Of a stretch of 44,881 bases of DNA, positions 4,157 to 42,028 are shown one piece after another (positions within the stretch are counted from its first letter, which is position 1; each line of letters opens with the position of its first letter). Under the pieces are notes generated by a model, which was given only the letters and a program-made list of their open reading frames with translations, made no database searches and was not told the origin of the DNA. The DNA is taken from the sequence record PV730301.1, one strand, 5' to 3'. The translations under genes and the position numbers were made by a program. The DNA is from a phage.

Positions 4157-4161
4157 AACTA

Positions 4162-4184
4162 AGGCCCCGAAAGGGGCCTTTTTC
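4162..4184. terminator. rho-independent terminator (bidirectional position)
   Basis: AGGCCCC-GAAA-GGGGCCT hairpin followed by TTTTT; sits between convergent plus and minus operons. Confidence 0.7.
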
Positions 4185-6130: not shown

Positions 6131-6160
6131 TTTAAACTCCTTCATTGTTGGTGTAAGTGA

Positions 6161-6189
6161 ATAGTACCCTATTATATTGGGGTGCGCAA
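6161..6189 (-). promoter_or_regulatory. sigma70-like promoter for the Imm/phosphoesterase operon (TTGCGC-17-TACTAT) containing the conserved TGAATAGT..CTATTATA element
   Basis: Hexamers and 17-bp spacing read from the sequence; the 23-mer is identical to 41997..42019. Confidence 0.45.
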
Positions 6190-15702: not shown

Positions 15703-15724
15703 AAGGCCCCGAACGGGGCCTTTT
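15703..15724. terminator. rho-independent terminator after the tailspike
   Basis: GGCCCC-GAAC-GGGGCC hairpin plus TTTT; near-identical to the terminator at 4162..4184. Confidence 0.7.
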
Positions 15725-18907: not shown

Positions 18908-19226
18908 TTCTCAATTCCTTATATTGTTGGTGTGTGTGATTACTATAATAGCCCGCTATTAGGTCGTCAACCTGTTTAAACGAACCAACGACAAAAACAT
19001 TTGCGCCTCGTTTACGCATCCTCTCGTGTTCACGTATTTGGTGCGGGTCTGGCTTCGTGTTTTCATCCTTCTTCACCTCGACGAACCAGACGATGCCGCC
19101 GGGGAGAATTATCAGCAGGTCGGGGGCGCCCACTCTATTTTCGTACGACAATTTGCGTACGAGGCCACCGATGGCCTCGAATCGCTCTTTTGCGTATTTC
19201 TGGATGCGCCCCTCAGGCGTACTCAT
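18891..19226 (-). CDS. VRR-NUC domain nuclease
   Basis: GAPDLLII...FVEVKK pattern typical of VRR-NUC. Confidence 0.65.
   Translation of the reverse strand: MSTPEGRIQKYAKERFEAIGGLVRKLSYENRVGAPDLLIILPGGIVWFVEVKKDENTKPDPHQIREHERMRKRGANVFVVGSFKQVDDLIAGYYSNHTHQQYKELRNETRI
18942..18970 (-). promoter_or_regulatory. sigma70-like promoter (TTGACG-17-TATAGT) with the conserved element, embedded in the 3' end of the VRR-NUC gene
   Basis: Hexamers and spacing read from the sequence; same architecture as 23052..23081 and 26055..26083. Confidence 0.5.
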
Positions 19227-23051: not shown

Positions 23052-23081
23052 ACTATAATAGCTAACTATTCAGGTTGTCAA
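23052..23081 (-). promoter_or_regulatory. sigma70-like promoter (TTGACA-18-TATAGT) with the conserved element
   Basis: Intergenic; hexamers read from the sequence. Confidence 0.5.
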
Positions 23082-26054: not shown

Positions 26055-26083
26055 ACTATAATAGCAAACTATTCACATGTCAA
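26055..26083 (-). promoter_or_regulatory. sigma70-like early promoter (TTGACA-17-TATAGT) with the conserved element
   Basis: Hexamers read from the sequence; a second weaker copy (TTGATA-17-TAATTA) at about 26099..26127. Confidence 0.5.
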
Positions 26084-26147
26084 TGGGCTTTTCTAAAATA
26101 ATTAATATGGTACTATTCACATATCAACCGACTAAGGAGTAATTGAC

Positions 26148-29511: not shown

Positions 29512-29540
29512 TTGCACACCCCGACATAATAGGATACTAT
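29512..29540 (+). promoter_or_regulatory. sigma70-like promoter (TTGCAC-17-TACTAT) with the conserved element
   Basis: Hexamers read from the sequence; same architecture at 30871..30899. Confidence 0.5.
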
Positions 29541-29568
29541 TCACTTATCAAAACGAAACCGAGGAGCG

Positions 29569-29969: not shown

Positions 29970-30135
29970 TATTTTAATTGTGGGGGTTGGTATGAGAGAA
30001 GCATTTGAGCGGTGGGCCGTCGTCGAGGGTCTGCCGGTTAACAAGGGTTCAAAGAAAGAGTACCTGAACGTTAAGACGCGTCTCGCGTGGCGGGCGTGGA
30101 AAGCTGGTGTGCAAGCTGTGATGAATAAGGGGTGA
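29962..30135 (+). CDS. hypothetical protein (GTG start)
   Basis: GGGAGG RBS 5 nt before GTG 29962. Confidence 0.4.
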   Translation: MNNILIVGVGMREAFERWAVVEGLPVNKGSKKEYLNVKTRLAWRAWKAGVQAVMNKG

Positions 30136-30870: not shown

Positions 30871-30899
30871 TTGCACACCTGGATATAATAGCCTACTAT
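30871..30899 (+). promoter_or_regulatory. sigma70-like promoter (TTGCAC-17-TACTAT) with the conserved element
   Basis: Hexamers read from the sequence. Confidence 0.5.
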
Positions 30900-30930
30900 T
30901 CATTTACACAAACGAGAGGAGAGACAGAAG

Positions 30931-36310: not shown

Positions 36311-36543
36311 TTACCAGCATCCCTAAACTGATTGAAGAGTACGGAAATATGTCGGAGACTTGCCGACAAACCGGTATCTGCGAGATGACGATTGCCAAGT
36401 ACAGCAAAGACGTGAACTGCGAGCGTCACGTAATTTATAACAATCGTCTTATGACGCACGTTAAGACTAGCCCGGTGTTATTCACACGCCGCGGTATCAC
36501 TAAAACAGAGCAACGCATTGCTAAAAAGGAGAGTGGGGAATGA
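36307..36543 (+). CDS. hypothetical protein
   Basis: ORF; start codon uncertain (TTG or internal ATG). Confidence 0.4.
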   Translation: MITSIPKLIEEYGNMSETCRQTGICEMTIAKYSKDVNCERHVIYNNRLMTHVKTSPVLFTRRGITKTEQRIAKKESGE

Positions 36544-36641
36544 GATTGCTAATCATCCCCAACGCCTGGGCTATCGCCGTAGCTAATGACCATTACGGCG
36601 GCGACGGTAAAAGAGCGCCACGACACGGCCTATACAACTGA
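36540..36641 (+). CDS. possible small ORF (33 aa)
   Basis: ATGA coupling; ends just before a terminator. Confidence 0.25.
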   Translation: MRLLIIPNAWAIAVANDHYGGDGKRAPRHGLYN

Positions 36642-36645
36642 TACA

Positions 36646-36667
36646 AGCCCTCTACGGAGGGCTTTTC
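36646..36667 (+). terminator. rho-independent terminator ending the early/middle plus operon
   Basis: AGCCCTC-TACG-GAGGGCT hairpin followed by TTTT. Confidence 0.65.
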
Positions 36668-36762
36668 TGTACATCCCGCCCAATCCCCTTATATAATCTA
36701 TTTAGACGCGTAGGGCGCGTCTGGTGCGCTCTGATGGTCAGACGCATATGCAAGGGGATTCT

Positions 36763-37305
36763 ATGAAGCTGAAACTTAAGCAGCCATCGCCAGAGGTGGT
36801 GCAAGCTGCACATGAAGAAGCTGTTAGCGCAAACCGTCGCCGTAAACGACCGCGCGGTAAACAGAGCCTTTATCAATCATCCCGTAATTCCGCCGCGCTG
36901 TGGGACCCGGACTATTGCGACGAATTAATCGAGTTCTTCGACCGCACGTCGTGGGAGCTTGTGCCTACGTCAAAGGGAGACGAACGCCCGCTGATTCAGG
37001 ATAAACCCCCGTCTCTGGCCCGCTTCGCCTTACACATCGGCGTCACTATCCCGATTATTAAGCTGTGGCTGCGTGAGATTCCTGCATTTGCAGAAGCCTG
37101 GGAGACAGCTCAATCGCTGGAAGAGGCCTATTTCACTGAGACAGGGGCCGCTGGTATCTCCGCTACGTTCGCTGCCGCTAAGCTGGGCCTTAGCAAAGAT
37201 AAGCCGGTCGAGGAAGCCGAGGTTCTACCGGCGACAATCGTATTTAGCGTAGCGCCCCCTGTAGGTGAAATCAAAACCACTAACATGGGTGAGGACGACG
37301 TATGA
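36763..37305 (+). CDS. terminase small subunit
   Basis: Directly upstream of and overlapping the large terminase; HTH-like region ARFALHIGVT...W..E.P.F.EAWE. Confidence 0.6.
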   Translation: MKLKLKQPSPEVVQAAHEEAVSANRRRKRPRGKQSLYQSSRNSAALWDPDYCDELIEFFDRTSWELVPTSKGDERPLIQDKPPSLARFALHIGVTIPIIKLWLREIPAFAEAWETAQSLEEAYFTETGAAGISATFAAAKLGLSKDKPVEEAEVLPATIVFSVAPPVGEIKTTNMGEDDV

Positions 37306-38552
37306 GTATCCAACTGTCCGCCCCTCAATCTATATTTCTCAATTGCGCCAATAAGTATAAGGCGTACGTCGGGGGCTTCGGTAGCGGTAAAACGTTTGTA
37401 GGATGCCTGAAGCTATTGACTTTCATCCGTCAGAACCCAAGAACGCGCGTCGGATACTTCGGACCGACATACCCGGCAATTCGCGATATTTTCTATCCAA
37501 CTTTCGAGGAAGCGGCTAATCTACTCGGGCTAAGTGTAGTAGTTAAAACGGGAGACAAAGAAGTAGAGGTGCGATATGGGCGCCAGTACCTGGGTACGGT
37601 AATCTGTCGTTCTATGGACAACCCGGCATCGATAGTTGGCTTTAAAGTATCCGCCGCGGTAGTGGACGAGCTGGACGTATTGAGCCGCGAGAAAGCGGAG
37701 CTGGCGTGGAACAAAATCGTAGCTCGTATGCGTCTTGTTATACCCGGTGTAGTTAACCAGATTTCGGTGACAACTACACCAGAGGGGTTTAAGTTTGTTT
37801 ATTCTAAATTTAAAGAGAATCCTACCAAAAGTTACTCTATGGTTCAGGCGTCTACACATGAGAATGCAAAATTTCTCCCATCGGATTATATCGACTCATT
37901 AGTGGAAACGTACCCGGAGCGATTAATAGACGCATATCTGAACGGTGAGTTTGTCAACCTGACATCCGGCAGCGTGTATTACGCATACGACCGCCGTAAG
38001 CACCGCAGCAAAGAGACAATTCAGCCGGGCGACACCTTATACATTGGGCAGGACTTCAACGTTACGAAGAATGCGAGCGCCGTTTATGTACAGCGCAAAG
38101 ACGGCTGGCACGCGGTTGCAGAACTGAAAGGTCTGTTTGATACGCCGGACACCGTGCGTGTAATTACCGAGAAGTGGAAGTCGCAAGGCCACCGTATCGT
38201 CGTTTACCCCGACGCCAGCGGCAAGAACCGCAAAACCAACTCCGCGTCAATCTCTGATATTGCATTACTACAGCAGGCTGGTTTCGACGTTCGCGCTAAA
38301 TCCGCCAACCCCCCGGTTAAAGACCGCGTTTTAGCCGTGAACACCGCGCTGGAAAAAGGTAAGCTGTGGGTTAATGACCACTTATGCCATGAGATAGCGA
38401 AGGCGCTGGAGCAGCAGGCATACGATGATAACGGAGAGCCAGCTAAAGACGGCGTCATTGACCACATGGCGGATGCTCTCGGCTATCCTGTAGTTTACGA
38501 GATGCCGGTGGTTAAACCTGTAATCAACATCCCGGTGACTTTCGCACTTTAA
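37302..38552 (+). CDS. terminase large subunit
   Basis: Walker A GGFGSGKT and Walker B AAVVDELD; size and position. Confidence 0.9.
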   Translation: MSIQLSAPQSIFLNCANKYKAYVGGFGSGKTFVGCLKLLTFIRQNPRTRVGYFGPTYPAIRDIFYPTFEEAANLLGLSVVVKTGDKEVEVRYGRQYLGTVICRSMDNPASIVGFKVSAAVVDELDVLSREKAELAWNKIVARMRLVIPGVVNQISVTTTPEGFKFVYSKFKENPTKSYSMVQASTHENAKFLPSDYIDSLVETYPERLIDAYLNGEFVNLTSGSVYYAYDRRKHRSKETIQPGDTLYIGQDFNVTKNASAVYVQRKDGWHAVAELKGLFDTPDTVRVITEKWKSQGHRIVVYPDASGKNRKTNSASISDIALLQQAGFDVRAKSANPPVKDRVLAVNTALEKGKLWVNDHLCHEIAKALEQQAYDDNGEPAKDGVIDHMADALGYPVVYEMPVVKPVINIPVTFAL

Positions 38553-38564
38553 GAGGATTATTCA

Positions 38565-40046
38565 ATGTTAACTATGAACGGTCAGAATCAGGGTGTTAAG
38601 ACAAAACACCGGGAATGGCTGCATCACTTCGATAAATGGCAGAAGGTGCGCCACGCGCTGGAAGGCGACCTTATTCGCTATCTGCGCAACGTCGGGAAGA
38701 ACGAGCCTGACCCGACCTACGCAGCACAGCGCCAGGAAGAATACGAGAACGGTGCTATCTGCTACAACTTCACTAAACGTACCCTGGTAGGGATGGTGGG
38801 GTCGGTTATGCGCAAAGACCCCGAGCAGATTATCCCGCCTGAACTTGAGTACCTGTTACGTAATGCCGACGGTTCCGGCGTTGGCCTGTGGCAGCACGCT
38901 CAGGACACTCTAATGGAGATTGACTCGGTTGGCCGCGGCGGGTTGCTGGTTGACGCCCCGGAGACAGCCGCAGCAACGGCAGCCGAGCAGAACGCGGGGC
39001 TATTAAACCCGGTAATCGCATTCTATACCGCAGAGAACATCATCAACTGGCGACTGACTCGCGTCGGTTCTGTTAACCGCATGACGATGGTCGTGTTGCG
39101 TGAGGTGTGGGAATACTCAGAACCGGATGCAGAGTTCGAAACAAAGTTCGGTGAGCAATACCGTGTTCTCGATTTGATTGACGGGCGCTACCGTCAGCGT
39201 ATTTACCGCTTCGATGCAGAAGGTGGTGCACAGGGTGAAGTAAAACAAATCTTCCCGAAACTTGGCGAACAGCTACGCGGCAAAATCCCGTTTACGTTCA
39301 TTGGCGCGAGCAACAACGACGCAACCATCGACGACGCCCCTTTGCTCCCGTTGGCTGAACTTAATATCGGGCATTTCCGCAACAGCGCGGACAATGAAGA
39401 GTCCAGCTTCGTTGTAGGCCAGCCCACTCTGTTCATCGCCCCTGGTGAAAACATGAGCATGGAACAGTGGGTGGAAGCTAACCCACGCGGTGTGCGCATG
39501 GGGTCGCGTTCAGGCCATAACATCGGGTACGGCGGAAACGCGTTTCTGGTTCAGGCAGGAGAGAACAACCTGGCCAAGCAGAATATGCTGGATAAAGAGA
39601 ATCAGGCAATCCAGATTGGCGCGCAGCTTATCACCCCGACGCAGCAAATCACCGCTGAATCAGCACGCCTGCAACGCGGCGCGGATACGTCCGTTATGGC
39701 GACAATCGCACGTAACGTAAGCATGGCATATACCGATGCGTTGCGCTGGGTGGCTGCGATGCTAGGGTTGCGTGAAGGTACAGAGGTTGAGTTCAAGCTG
39801 AATATGGAGTTCTTCCTGCAACCAATGACCGCTCAGGACCGCACCCAGTGGATGGCGGATATTAACGCTGGCCTGTTACCGGCTACAGCTTACTATGCGG
39901 CATTGCGTAAGGCGGGCGTAACGGACTGGACGGACGAAGACATTCAGAACGCTATCGAGGATGCGCCTCTGCCTATGGGCGCGGTTACCCGGGTGCAGGG
40001 GGAGATTCCGCAGTCTGCGCAACAACAGGACACCACTCAGCAGTAA
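38565..40046 (+). CDS. portal protein
   Basis: 493 aa directly after the large terminase, before the head-morphogenesis gene. Confidence 0.7.
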   Translation: MLTMNGQNQGVKTKHREWLHHFDKWQKVRHALEGDLIRYLRNVGKNEPDPTYAAQRQEEYENGAICYNFTKRTLVGMVGSVMRKDPEQIIPPELEYLLRNADGSGVGLWQHAQDTLMEIDSVGRGGLLVDAPETAAATAAEQNAGLLNPVIAFYTAENIINWRLTRVGSVNRMTMVVLREVWEYSEPDAEFETKFGEQYRVLDLIDGRYRQRIYRFDAEGGAQGEVKQIFPKLGEQLRGKIPFTFIGASNNDATIDDAPLLPLAELNIGHFRNSADNEESSFVVGQPTLFIAPGENMSMEQWVEANPRGVRMGSRSGHNIGYGGNAFLVQAGENNLAKQNMLDKENQAIQIGAQLITPTQQITAESARLQRGADTSVMATIARNVSMAYTDALRWVAAMLGLREGTEVEFKLNMEFFLQPMTAQDRTQWMADINAGLLPATAYYAALRKAGVTDWTDEDIQNAIEDAPLPMGAVTRVQGEIPQSAQQQDTTQQ

Positions 40047-40056
40047 GTTCACATAT

Positions 40057-40079
40057 AGCCCCGAAAGGGGCTTTCTTAT
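40057..40079 (+). terminator. terminator-like hairpin (possible attenuator inside the head operon)
   Basis: AGCCCC-GAAA-GGGGCT hairpin followed by TTCTTAT. Confidence 0.45.
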
Positions 40080-41623: not shown

Positions 41624-41651
41624 AAGGCCCCTTACGGGGCCTTAGATTTTT
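41624..41651. terminator. rho-independent terminator between convergent genes
   Basis: AAGGCCCC-TTAC-GGGGCCTT hairpin followed by ATTTTT. Confidence 0.65.
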
Positions 41652-41956: not shown

Positions 41957-41999
41957 TTTAGTAAACCTCTATTTTTATTAAATAACACCGATGTGATGA

Positions 42000-42028
42000 A
42001 TAGTACCCTATTATATTGGTGTCTGCAA
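42000..42028 (-). promoter_or_regulatory. sigma70-like promoter (TTGCAG-17-TACTAT) with the conserved 23-mer
   Basis: Same 23-mer as at 6158..6180. Confidence 0.45.

What the first reader, a model, noticed from the sequence alone, without database searches (positions are those of the whole stretch)
36668..36762. Terminase operon leader with a perfect TATAAT and mutually exclusive hairpins
Seen in sequence: TATAAT at 36692..36697 with a weak -35. Immediately downstream, AGACGCG (36704..36710), CGCGTCT (36716..36722) and AGACGC (36739..36744) allow two alternative pairings of the middle segment, an attenuator-like arrangement in the 5' leader of the terminase small subunit gene.
Basis: partly seen in the sequence, partly recalled or inferred. 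Interest (0 to 1): 0.4.

Follow-up and report, generated by a model that had tools for sequence, protein, structure and literature searches.

The report
Conserved two-hairpin terminase mRNA leader
In front of this phage's DNA-packaging genes sits an ordinary host-type promoter followed by two side-by-side RNA hairpins that are kept, through compensating base changes, in many enterobacterial siphophages; this is an undescribed leader element, not the switch-like attenuator first proposed.

Summary
The window is a Kagunavirus (Guernseyvirinae) genome.

What is there is a compact cassette:
- intrinsic terminator, 36645-36668
- sigma70-type promoter: -35 TGTACA 36668-73, -10 TATAAT 36692-97
- predicted start at about A36704
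- hairpin H1, 36704-36722
- hairpin H2, 36724-36747
- free Shine-Dalgarno sequence, 36752-58
- terS ATG, 36763

H1 and H2 form together. They are the minimum-energy fold and are supported by compensatory changes. The same architecture recurs in front of terS genes only about 25-30% identical: Jerseyvirus, Cornellvirus, other Guernseyvirinae of Enterobacter, Serratia, Klebsiella, Hafnia and Pantoea, plus Dhillonvirus and Eiauvirus. The stems covary and the loops stay NGG. Mismatches are G.U and almost never A.C, which points to plus-strand RNA.

There is therefore no attenuator.

No Rfam family matches and the genome holds no second copy.

Most likely function (inferred): a 5'-terminal structured leader that sets the stability and expression of the packaging-operon mRNA, possibly read by an unknown factor.

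The parts
36645..36668 (+). Intrinsic terminator closing the upstream gene block. The stem is AAGCCCTC/GAGGGCTT with a UACG loop and a TTTT(C)TGT tail. The tail abuts the -35.
   Evidence: Inverted repeat I5. It folds. A compensatory T-A to G-C change occurs in Jerseyvirus (pair 9/16). The equivalent hairpin is annotated as a terminator in Dhillonvirus WFI. It was not listed by the simple scan.
36668..36673 (+). -35 element TGTACA (4 of 6 matches), with an 18-nt spacer.
   Evidence: Invariant in 38 distinct Kagunavirus and Jerseyvirus leaders, while the spacer varies.
36692..36697 (+). -10 element TATAAT.
   Evidence: It is TATAAT or TACAAT in all lineages, 2-9 nt upstream of H1.
36704..36704 (+). 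Predicted transcription start (an A, 7 nt after the -10). It is also the first paired base of H1.
   Evidence: Inference from sigma70 promoter geometry, which is established knowledge. It has not been mapped experimentally.
36704..36722 (+). Hairpin H1: AGACGCGU-AGG-GCGCGUCU, 8 bp. It can extend by U36703.G36723.
   Evidence: z = -4.35 for the H1+H2 core. 100% of cells are paired in 38 sequences, with G-C, U.G and C-G at one position. Family-wide covariation is shown.
36724..36747 (+). Hairpin H2: GUGCG-C-UCUGA-UGG-UCAGA-CGCAU. It has 5+5 bp, a bulged C36729 and a UGG loop.
   Evidence: A compensatory C-G to A-U change occurs in Jerseyvirus. The inner stem was recovered with covariation from an unguided MAFFT/RNAalifold run on 14 lineages.
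36752..36758 (+). Shine-Dalgarno sequence AAGGGGA. It is unpaired in the tandem fold.
   Evidence: An SD-like purine run lies 3-8 nt after H2 in all lineages.
36763..37305 (+). terS (terminase small subunit, phrog_3064). The true start is ATG 36763.
   Evidence: The PHROG profile aligns from residue 1. Codon-position test: third-position bias and synonymous changes begin at 36763 and are absent in 36724-36762.
37302..40046 (+). terL (37302-38552) and the portal gene (38565-40046), the rest of the likely transcription unit.
40057..40072 (+). First terminator-like hairpin downstream, after the portal gene. It is the probable end or attenuation point of the unit.

Best explanation
The segment is the head of the packaging operon (terS-terL-portal).

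How it is laid out:
- A terminator (36645-36668) insulates the operon from upstream transcription.
- A host sigma70-type promoter (-35 TGTACA, -10 TATAAT) starts the mRNA at about A36704.
- The first ~44 nt of that mRNA fold into two adjacent hairpins that exist at the same time: H1 (36704-36722, AGG loop) and H2 (36724-36747, bulged, UGG loop).
- An unpaired Shine-Dalgarno sequence and the terS ATG at 36763 follow.

Shown here:
- The hairpins are a conserved plus-strand RNA structure shared by Guernseyvirinae, Dhillonvirus and Eiauvirus.
- They are not alternative conformers.

Inferred:
- Because H1 sits at the very 5' end, the element most likely acts as a 5'-terminal structured cap.
- Such a cap would hinder RppH/RNase E 5'-end-dependent decay and keep the ribosome-binding site free.
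- It would thereby set the lifetime and yield of the packaging-gene mRNA.
- The near-invariant NGG loops suggest that some protein, host or phage, additionally reads the element.
For: Identity and context:
- The window is a Kagunavirus genome.
- terS, terL and portal are identified.

Promoter:
- It is the best sigma70 match in the late region, 10 of 12.
- The -35 and -10 are invariant and the spacer is variable in 38 leaders.
- In distant lineages the -10 TATAAT is retained with TTGCCT/TTGCCA at 17 nt, or with an extended -10 TGnTATAAT.

Structure:
- The tandem H1+H2 fold is the MFE and centroid.
- The 48-nt core has z = -4.35 and makes up 50% of the ensemble.
- RNAalifold predicts the same fold.
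- 99.5% of cells are paired, with one compensatory pair in each helix, against 28-63% in slid controls.
- The same architecture is predicted independently in about 14 lineages with different stem sequences.
- Model R1 finds the element just upstream of terS in nearly all fetched loci that have the upstream sequence (L184 was recognised only by eye).
- Anchored on the loops, 13 of 16 pairs show changes on both sides, with 34 extra pair types.

RNA rather than DNA:
- In the 7 bp next to the H1 loop there are 20 G.U cells against 1 A.C.

5'-end link:
- The -10 to H1 distance is 2-9 nt in all lineages.
- 5' secondary structure protects against RppH and RNase E (PMC3997798).
Against: - No transcription start has been mapped for any of these phages. 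Literature searches found none.
- A plain 5' stabiliser needs neither a second hairpin nor conserved loop sequences, so something more specific is probably involved.
- The H2 to ATG distance is also fairly constrained at 12-22 nt, which would fit translational control as well.
- The family-wide alignment A6 was built by extending stems through standard pairs, so its 100% pairing is partly by construction.
- An unguided alignment of all lineages recovers only the inner H2 stem.
- Folding of the longer stretch 36704-36790 is not better than shuffles, z = -0.58.
Confidence: 0.5

Rival explanations
1. The tandem hairpins are a specific protein-binding operator. Candidates are TerS itself in autogenous control, another phage protein, or a host RNA-binding protein. 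Occupancy next to the Shine-Dalgarno sequence would set terS and terL translation.
For: - The loop sequences are near-invariant (NGG followed by G in H1; A-YGG-U in H2) while the stems covary freely.
- H2 ends only 3-8 nt before the SD and 12-22 nt before the ATG.
- The element always travels with this terS family and occurs nowhere else in the genome.
Against: - No binding protein is identified.
- The H2 to ATG spacing varies by 10 nt.
- The SD is not sequestered in any lineage.
- The loops lack the GGA needed for CsrA.
- Nothing here tests binding.
Confidence: 0.22
2. A put-like cis-acting RNA. The nascent two-hairpin RNA would bind RNA polymerase and make it resistant to the terminators scattered through the ~24-kb structural region.
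For: - The topology and position resemble HK022 putL: two stem-loops starting at +3 of the transcript, just downstream of the promoter (PMC9378689).
- Several strong plus-strand terminator-like hairpins lie downstream: 40057, 41624, 42304, 44695, 4161 and 6849.
- No Q- or N-like protein was noticed.
Against: - The element is 44 nt against ~70 nt for put, and has none of put's bulges or triplex.
- Model R1 finds nothing in HK022.
- The late region carries its own promoter-like motifs after terminators, at 41999 and 6160, so read-through is not required.
- Partial terminators are common in phage late operons.
Confidence: 0.06
3. A DNA-level site. The inverted repeats would be an operator for a dimeric repressor or activator at +1, or the pac site bound by TerS.
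For: - H1 is a 19-bp palindrome overlapping the predicted start.
- pac sites of headful phages often lie in or near terS. This is established knowledge for P22 and SPP1.
- The element co-occurs with the terS family.
Against: - The strand asymmetry of imperfections (20 G.T against 1 A.C) is not expected for a duplex-DNA palindrome.
- H2 has an asymmetric bulge.
- The stems change completely between lineages while staying paired.
- Only the loops are conserved.
Confidence: 0.08
4. One reading: an attenuator in which the middle segment (36716-36722) pairs either with 36704-36710 or with 36739-36745 to switch terS expression.
For: A 7-8-bp alternative pairing exists in Kagunavirus sequences.
Against: - The alternative fold is 6.8 kcal/mol less stable, with pair probability about 0.
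- H1 forms first during transcription.
- The central pair is broken, without compensation, in all 7 Jerseyvirus rows, by the very change that is compensated within H2.
- Only 2-5 bp of this pairing exist in all other lineages.
- No U-run follows any hairpin.
- There is no conserved leader peptide.
Confidence: 0.03
5. A long-range anti-SD helix. AAUCCCCUU (36682-36690) would pair with AAGGGGAUU (36752-36760) and silence terS on transcripts that read through the upstream terminator. Promoter-initiated transcripts would lack the anti-SD.
For: It is the MFE of 36640-36790, with z = -3.76. The arms are 14 nt long and 86% complementary (I1).
Against: There are no compensatory changes and many breaks. 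Variants such as AATCACC, AATCCAC and AATACCC occur with an unchanged SD. Six of the 12 pairs depart only by unpaired cells. The C-rich spacer and G-rich SD explain the complementarity.
Confidence: 0.05

Closest known systems
5'-terminal stabilising stem-loops of E. coli mRNAs (ompA and papA leaders); the 5' hairpin of the T7 gene 10 leader is a phage example known to me
   Same: A hairpin begins at, or within a few nucleotides of, the predicted +1 of a sigma70 transcript. It lies upstream of an unpaired ribosome-binding site. This location is known to block RppH and RNase E access (PMC3997798).
   Different: Those elements work regardless of hairpin sequence. Here a second, bulged hairpin and near-invariant NGG loops are conserved across several phage lineages (Guernseyvirinae genera, Dhillonvirus, Eiauvirus), which implies extra specificity. 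The 5' end is not mapped.
HK022 put RNA (putL)
   Same: It is a cis RNA made of two stem-loops at the extreme 5' end of a long phage operon, directly after a sigma70 promoter (PMC9378689).
   Different: put is about 70 nt long with bulges and a triplex and binds the beta' zinc-binding domain. This element is 44 nt long and has no sequence or model similarity to put. It sits in virulent siphophages in front of packaging genes rather than early genes. Antitermination is untested.
Classical transcription attenuators (trp, his and pyr leaders)
   Same: A short structured leader lies between a promoter and the first gene.
   Different: There is no terminator hairpin with a U-run, no conserved alternative pairing and no conserved leader peptide.
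Tandem-hairpin cis-regulators with conserved loops (guanidine-II/mini-ykkC riboswitch; lambda nut boxB)
   Same: Small hairpins whose loops, rather than stems, are conserved, placed just upstream of a ribosome-binding site.
   Different: The loops here are NGG triloops, not ACGR tetraloops or GNRA-like pentaloops. No boxA is conserved. No Rfam model matches, even at E <= 10.

Membership tests
Sigma70-dependent promoter | A near-consensus -10 hexamer conserved among relatives | tested here: met
   TATAAT or TACAAT is present in all lineages examined, with divergent flanks.
Sigma70-dependent promoter | A -35 hexamer at 16-18 nt, or an extended -10 (TGn) | tested here: met
   TGTACA at 18 nt in Kagunavirus and Jerseyvirus. 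TTGCCT or TTGCCA at 17 nt in the STP-1, phiEap-2, Tsm2 and L184 types, and TGnTATAAT in Dhillonvirus.
Sigma70-dependent promoter | Mapped transcription start and dependence on the host holoenzyme | not testable with these tools
   No transcript data were found. +1 at A36704 is inferred from geometry.
Rho-independent terminator (36645-36668) | A G+C-rich hairpin followed by a U-run | tested here: met
   8-bp stem, UACG loop, UUUUCUGU tail. A compensatory change occurs in Jerseyvirus. The simple scan did not list it, because its longest stem uses up two Ts of the tail.
Transcription attenuator (alternative terminator/antiterminator hairpins) | Two mutually exclusive pairings, both conserved | tested here: not met
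   The alternative pairing is broken in Jerseyvirus and is only 2-5 bp long in other lineages. It is 6.8 kcal/mol worse in the window.
Transcription attenuator (alternative terminator/antiterminator hairpins) | One conformer is an intrinsic terminator upstream of the gene | tested here: not met
   H2 is followed by AUAUGCAAGG, not a U-run. No plus-strand terminator-like site lies in 36700-36763.
Transcription attenuator (alternative terminator/antiterminator hairpins) | A sensing device such as a conserved leader peptide | tested here: not met
   The in-frame extension 36724-36762 shows no coding signature. Upstream ATGs are absent or out of frame in the eiAU, Tsm2, L184 and Dhillonvirus leaders.
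5'-terminal stabilising stem-loop (ompA/papA type) | A hairpin within a few nucleotides of the mRNA 5' end | tested here: inconclusive
   H1 starts 2-9 nt after the -10 in all lineages, which is at about +1. The 5' end itself is not mapped.
5'-terminal stabilising stem-loop (ompA/papA type) | Lengthens mRNA half-life by blocking RppH/RNase E | not testable with these tools
   This needs half-life measurements in wild-type, rppH and rne backgrounds.
HK022 put RNA | Two stem-loops in cis at the start of the transcript, just after the promoter | tested here: met
   compared with the description in PMC9378689.
HK022 put RNA | put sequence and structure (~70 nt, bulged stems, conserved residues) | tested here: not met
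   The element is 44 nt long. Covariance model R1 gives no hit above noise anywhere in HK022 (best 8.4 bits, E = 2).
HK022 put RNA | Suppresses downstream terminators through the RNAP beta' zinc-binding domain | not testable with these tools
   Downstream terminator-like hairpins exist, but their read-through cannot be measured here.
Lambda-type nut site | A boxB hairpin with a GNRA-like pentaloop, plus a conserved boxA | tested here: not met
   The loops are NGG triloops. CGCUCU in H2 is present only in Kagunavirus and changes to CGCUAU, CGUUAU or UUGCCG elsewhere.
CsrA-binding leader | GGA motifs presented in hairpin loops | tested here: not met
   The loops read (C/U)-AGG-G and A-UGG-U. No GGA is in either loop.
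Any Rfam 15 family (including mini-ykkC and phage cis-regulatory motifs) | Covariance-model match | tested here: not met
   No hit at gathering score in the window. Nothing on the leader at E <= 10. Nothing on the leaders of 8 distant relatives at E <= 1.
pac site / DNA operator | Recognition as duplex DNA; packaging ends or protein footprints at the site | not testable with these tools
   Indirect evidence is against it: the strand-specific excess of G.U over A.C (20 to 1) and the asymmetric bulge in H2.

The most novel reading that the evidence does not exclude
The two NGG-looped hairpins may be a new, miniature put-like element. In that reading a nascent 44-nt RNA stays bound to host RNA polymerase, or recruits a host factor to it. 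It would carry the polymerase through the terminator-like hairpins after the portal gene and further into the ~24-kb structural region. A single constitutive-looking promoter could then drive late gene expression without any phage antiterminator protein.
Probability: 0.06. Interest if true: 0.75.

Novelty: new member of a known kind. Interest (0 to 1): 0.42.

Why it matters
**A candidate new RNA family.** The element is a well-supported, apparently undescribed cis-RNA motif. It has no Rfam match, and no description turned up in the few literature searches made. It sits at the head of the packaging operon in hundreds of sequenced enterobacterial siphophages. These include Kagunavirus, Jerseyvirus and Dhillonvirus isolates, groups described in the phage-therapy and biocontrol literature.

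**It corrects annotation.** Close relatives annotate three different terS starts. These are the GTG/ATG inside H2 (with an 'RBS' placed in the H1 loop, as in phage Shelanagig), the ATG at 36748, and the ATG at 36763. The data here favour 36763.

**It is easy to test.** The compact, modular cassette (terminator, promoter, 5' structured leader, RBS) allows experiments on how virulent siphophages without their own RNA polymerase set the level and timing of terminase and portal expression. It is also a potential part for phage engineering.

Tried and rejected
1. **Attenuator or alternative hairpins.** Rejected on energy, conservation and the lack of a U-run.
2. **Anti-SD long-range helix 36682-90/36752-60.** It is the MFE with z = -3.76, but it shows no covariation and many breaks.
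3. **terS starting at GTG 36724 or ATG 36748, or a leader peptide.** The codon-position test shows no coding signature upstream of 36763. The PHROG profile starts at residue 1 of the 36763 ORF. Upstream ATGs are not conserved across lineages.
4. **A repeated regulatory motif.** AGACGCG is not significantly enriched: 15 copies against 8.5 expected. Model R1 finds no second copy in the window.
5. **Known RNA families.** No Rfam match.
6. **put homology.** No R1 hit in HK022.
7. **A closing helix between the discriminator (CCCUUU) and the SD.** It was predicted in several lineages. Those bases lie upstream of the predicted +1 and vary freely within Kagunavirus.
8. **Prophage copies in E. coli.** None found.
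9. **Wider protein-guided searches with terS alignments.** These failed for lack of conserved stretches.
10. **The exact-pattern scan of IMG/VR.** It mostly returned contigs already held plus chance matches.
11. **Literature searches for transcript maps of these phages.** Nothing found.
12. **Unguided MAFFT plus RNAalifold over all lineages.** It recovered only the inner H2 stem, because H1 is out of register.

Full report
**1. Observation**

Reading the window confirms these positions:
- TATAAT at 36692-36697
- AGACGCG at 36704-36710
- CGCGTCT at 36716-36722

CAGACGC (36739-45) is complementary to GCGTCTG (36717-23). The -35 is TGTACA at 36668-73 with an 18-nt spacer.

None of these pieces is remarkable alone.
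- Perfect 7-bp hairpins with short loops occur 41 times in the window, against 18 +/- 4.5 in shuffles.
- AGACGCG occurs 15 times against 8.5 expected.

**2. Context**

The window is a Kagunavirus (Guernseyvirinae) genome, close to phage Golestan. The gene downstream of the finding is the terminase small subunit (phrog_3064). It is followed by terL and the portal gene.

Immediately upstream lie a NinH-like gene, a 33-codon ORF, and a hairpin AAGCCCTC-TACG-GAGGGCTT followed by TTTTCTGT (36645-36668). This hairpin has the form of an intrinsic terminator. Homology with many relatives begins exactly at it, while the genes upstream are variable (rows beginning at query position 84-85).

**3. Promoter**

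In 38 distinct Kagunavirus and Jerseyvirus leaders (alignment A1):
- the terminator tail plus -35 (GGGCTTTTCTGTACA) is invariant
- the 18-nt spacer is highly variable
- the -10 is TATAAT or TACAAT
- the discriminator varies

This is the footprint of a real promoter. It is also the best sigma70 match in the late region. With the -10 ending at 36697, the expected start is A36704, the first base of the first hairpin. This is inferred from promoter geometry and has not been mapped.

**4. Structure in close relatives**

The MFE and centroid of the leader are two adjacent hairpins, not alternatives:
- H1, 36704-36722: 8 bp, AGG loop
- H2, 36724-36747: 5+5 bp, bulged C36729, UGG loop

The 48-nt core has z = -4.35, and the tandem fold makes up half of the ensemble. 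RNAalifold on 16 distinct cores gives the same fold.

Counting pairs on A1:
- 99.5% of cells are paired, against 28-63% when partners are slid
- there is one doubly changed pair in each of the terminator, H1 and H2
- one H1 position is G-C, U.G or C-G
- one H2 position is C-G or A-U
- several changes interconvert Watson-Crick and G.U pairs

**5. The family is much wider**

Phages whose terS is only about 25-30% identical to the window's (alignment) carry the same cassette: terminator, TATAAT, H1 about 7 nt later, H2, SD, terS.

They are:
- Cornellvirus-type Salmonella phages (STP-1, SenTO17, PhiSTP1)
- Enterobacter phiEap-2
- Serratia Tsm2 and Otaku
- Klebsiella VLCpiS11a and 37P2
- Hafnia TS33
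- Pantoea AH01
- Dhillonvirus
- Edwardsiella eiAU
- several IMG/VR contigs

The covariance model built from the Kagunavirus and Jerseyvirus cores finds the element just upstream of terS in nearly all of these loci. L184 was recognised only by eye.

Single-sequence folding gives the same architecture lineage by lineage, although the stems differ almost completely. For example, H1 is AGACGCGU/GCGCGUCU here, GGCGGGCC/GGUCCGCC in eiAU and AAGGCCC/GGGCUUU in Tsm2.

What stays constant is the loops. H1 carries an NGG triloop (AGG or UGG; once GGG, once AGA) followed by G. H2 carries A-UGG-U (once CGG, once a G.U closing pair).

With arms anchored on the loops (alignment A6):
- 13 of 16 pairs show changes on both sides
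- there are 34 additional pair types
- slid controls pair in only 25-53% of cells

Caveat: the stems in A6 were delimited by extension through standard pairs, so its 100% pairing is partly by construction. An unguided MAFFT/RNAalifold run over 14 lineages recovers only the inner H2 stem, with covariation.

The element is absent upstream of the terS homologues of Vibrio phage NF, Pectobacterium phage Pappous and Klebsiella phage NewHawk.

**6. RNA or DNA?**

In the seven pairs next to the H1 loop, 17 distinct variants contain 20 G.U cells and one A.C cell. A duplex-DNA palindrome would accumulate both kinds equally. G.U-only imperfection points to folding of the plus strand, meaning the terS mRNA. 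The asymmetric bulge in H2 points the same way.

**7.

Forcing the alternative pairing (36717-23 with 36739-45) costs 6.8 kcal/mol, and its equilibrium pair probability is about 0.

In Jerseyvirus the G-to-U change at 36741 is compensated inside H2 (C36731 to A). That same change breaks the alternative helix, which receives no compensation. In every other lineage the longest possible H1-3'/H2-3' pairing is 2-5 bp.

No hairpin is followed by a U-run before terS, and no leader peptide is conserved. The repeat of AGACGC is therefore a Kagunavirus-specific coincidence between the H1 5' arm and the H2 3' arm.

**8. Other readings examined**

- **Long anti-SD helix (36682-90 with 36752-60).** It dominates the fold of 36640-36790 (z = -3.76). 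It shows no compensation and many breaks.
- **In-frame extension from GTG 36724.** Several GenBank records annotate this as the terS start. It evolves like non-coding sequence. Variable sites by codon position 1/2/3 are 3/8/4, with no purely synonymous codon. In terS proper the counts are 9/10/28, with 15 synonymous-only codons.
- **A repeated motif.** There is no second copy of the element in the genome.
- **Known RNA families.** There is no Rfam match.
- **put.** There is no similarity to HK022 put.
- **Prophages.** No copy was found in E. coli genomes.

**9. Mechanism**

Shown:
- a conserved promoter-like cassette
- a conserved plus-strand two-hairpin structure placed between the -10 and the SD
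- both hairpins formed together
- the SD left unpaired

Inferred:
- Transcription starts at about 36704, so H1 is 5'-terminal.
- 5'-terminal base pairing is known to protect E. coli mRNAs from RppH and RNase E (PMC3997798).
- The -10 to H1 distance is held at 2-9 nt in all lineages.

I therefore favour a 5'-terminal protective and expression-setting leader for the terS-terL-portal unit. That unit probably ends or is attenuated at the hairpin 40057-40072.

The conserved NGG loops and the second hairpin go beyond what a simple stabiliser needs. A specific reader is therefore a serious rival or an added layer. Candidates are TerS in autogenous control, a host RNA-binding protein, or RNA polymerase in a put-like manner.

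The put-like idea is weakened by the size difference. It is also weakened by promoter-like motifs that follow terminators further along the late region.

**10. Comparison and novelty**

Functionally the nearest precedents are the ompA/papA-type 5' stem-loops and, by position and topology, HK022 putL (PMC9378689). It is not a member of the attenuator, nut, put, CsrA-site or guanidine-II families, because defining features were tested and not met.

It is best filed as a new member of the broad class of structured 5' leaders. It is a candidate new RNA family, a 'terS leader', covering Guernseyvirinae, Dhillonvirus and Eiauvirus.

**11. Limits**

No transcript or structure-probing data exist for these phages in the searchable literature. 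The number of independent evolutionary events within each genus is small. The family-wide alignment is structure-guided. Function is inferred from position and conservation only.

Noticed in passing
window 6160-6175(+), 41999-42014(+), 29526-29541(-), 30885-30900(-), 23055-23070(-), 26058-26073(-), 26102-26117(-), 18945-18960(-): The 16-nt motif AATAGTAcCCTATTAT occurs 13 times at up to 3 mismatches, against 0.87 expected. It is the 'phage promoter' that PHIRE reports for kagunaviruses (PMC9825357). The flanks suggest two promoter classes. One is TTGACA-N17-TATAGT on the minus-strand early genes, with the motif in the spacer. The other has no -35 but a conserved downstream box, GGGGTGTGCAAG. 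The terS promoter belongs to neither class.
   Followed up: partly
L002 (EF2-1) 2004-2588; L001 (KMB35) 1849-2373; L155 (buks) 482-1027; L158 (Shelanagig) 44-48 and 55-600: Close relatives annotate three different terS starts. These are the GTG/ATG inside H2 (with a 'ribosome binding site' placed in the H1 loop), the ATG at the window-36748 equivalent, and the ATG at the 36763 equivalent. The codon-position and PHROG evidence favours 36763.
   Followed up: yes
L157 (Salmonella phage L223) about 400-520: The cassette is mosaic: a Jerseyvirus-type terminator, a Kagunavirus-type promoter spacer and -10, then Jerseyvirus-type hairpins and terS. The recombination joints therefore fall between the terminator, promoter and leader modules.
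   Followed up: no
window 36540-36641 and 36576-36626: The 33-codon ORF just before the terminator contains a 50-nt stretch that is 86-92% identical to ~50-kb coliphages (SECphi27, tiwna, tunus and others). Some kagunaviruses carry a ~180-bp insertion or a different small ORF here. This is a variable, mosaic region abutting the conserved cassette.
   Followed up: no
window 41624-41643, 4161-4180, 15703-15722: Three bidirectional terminator-like hairpins share the same stem, AAGGCCCC-NNNN-GGGGCCTT, at gene-block boundaries. Other strong plus-strand terminator-like hairpins lie at 40057, 42304, 44695 and 6849.
   Followed up: no
window 36682-36695 / 36747-36760: A 14-nt inverted repeat, 86% complementary, links the promoter spacer (AATCCCCTT) to the terS Shine-Dalgarno region. 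It dominates the fold of read-through RNA but shows no covariation.
   Followed up: yes
window 30074-30083: A perfect 10-bp palindrome, AGACGCGTCT, shares the H1 arm sequence. It is isolated and was not examined further.
   Followed up: no
L190 (Salmonella phage PSP2-22, UNVERIFIED record) 1-500: In this record the terS promoter-leader cassette directly follows the 3' end of a terL gene, with no terminator between them. This suggests a rearranged or misassembled genome.
   Followed up: no
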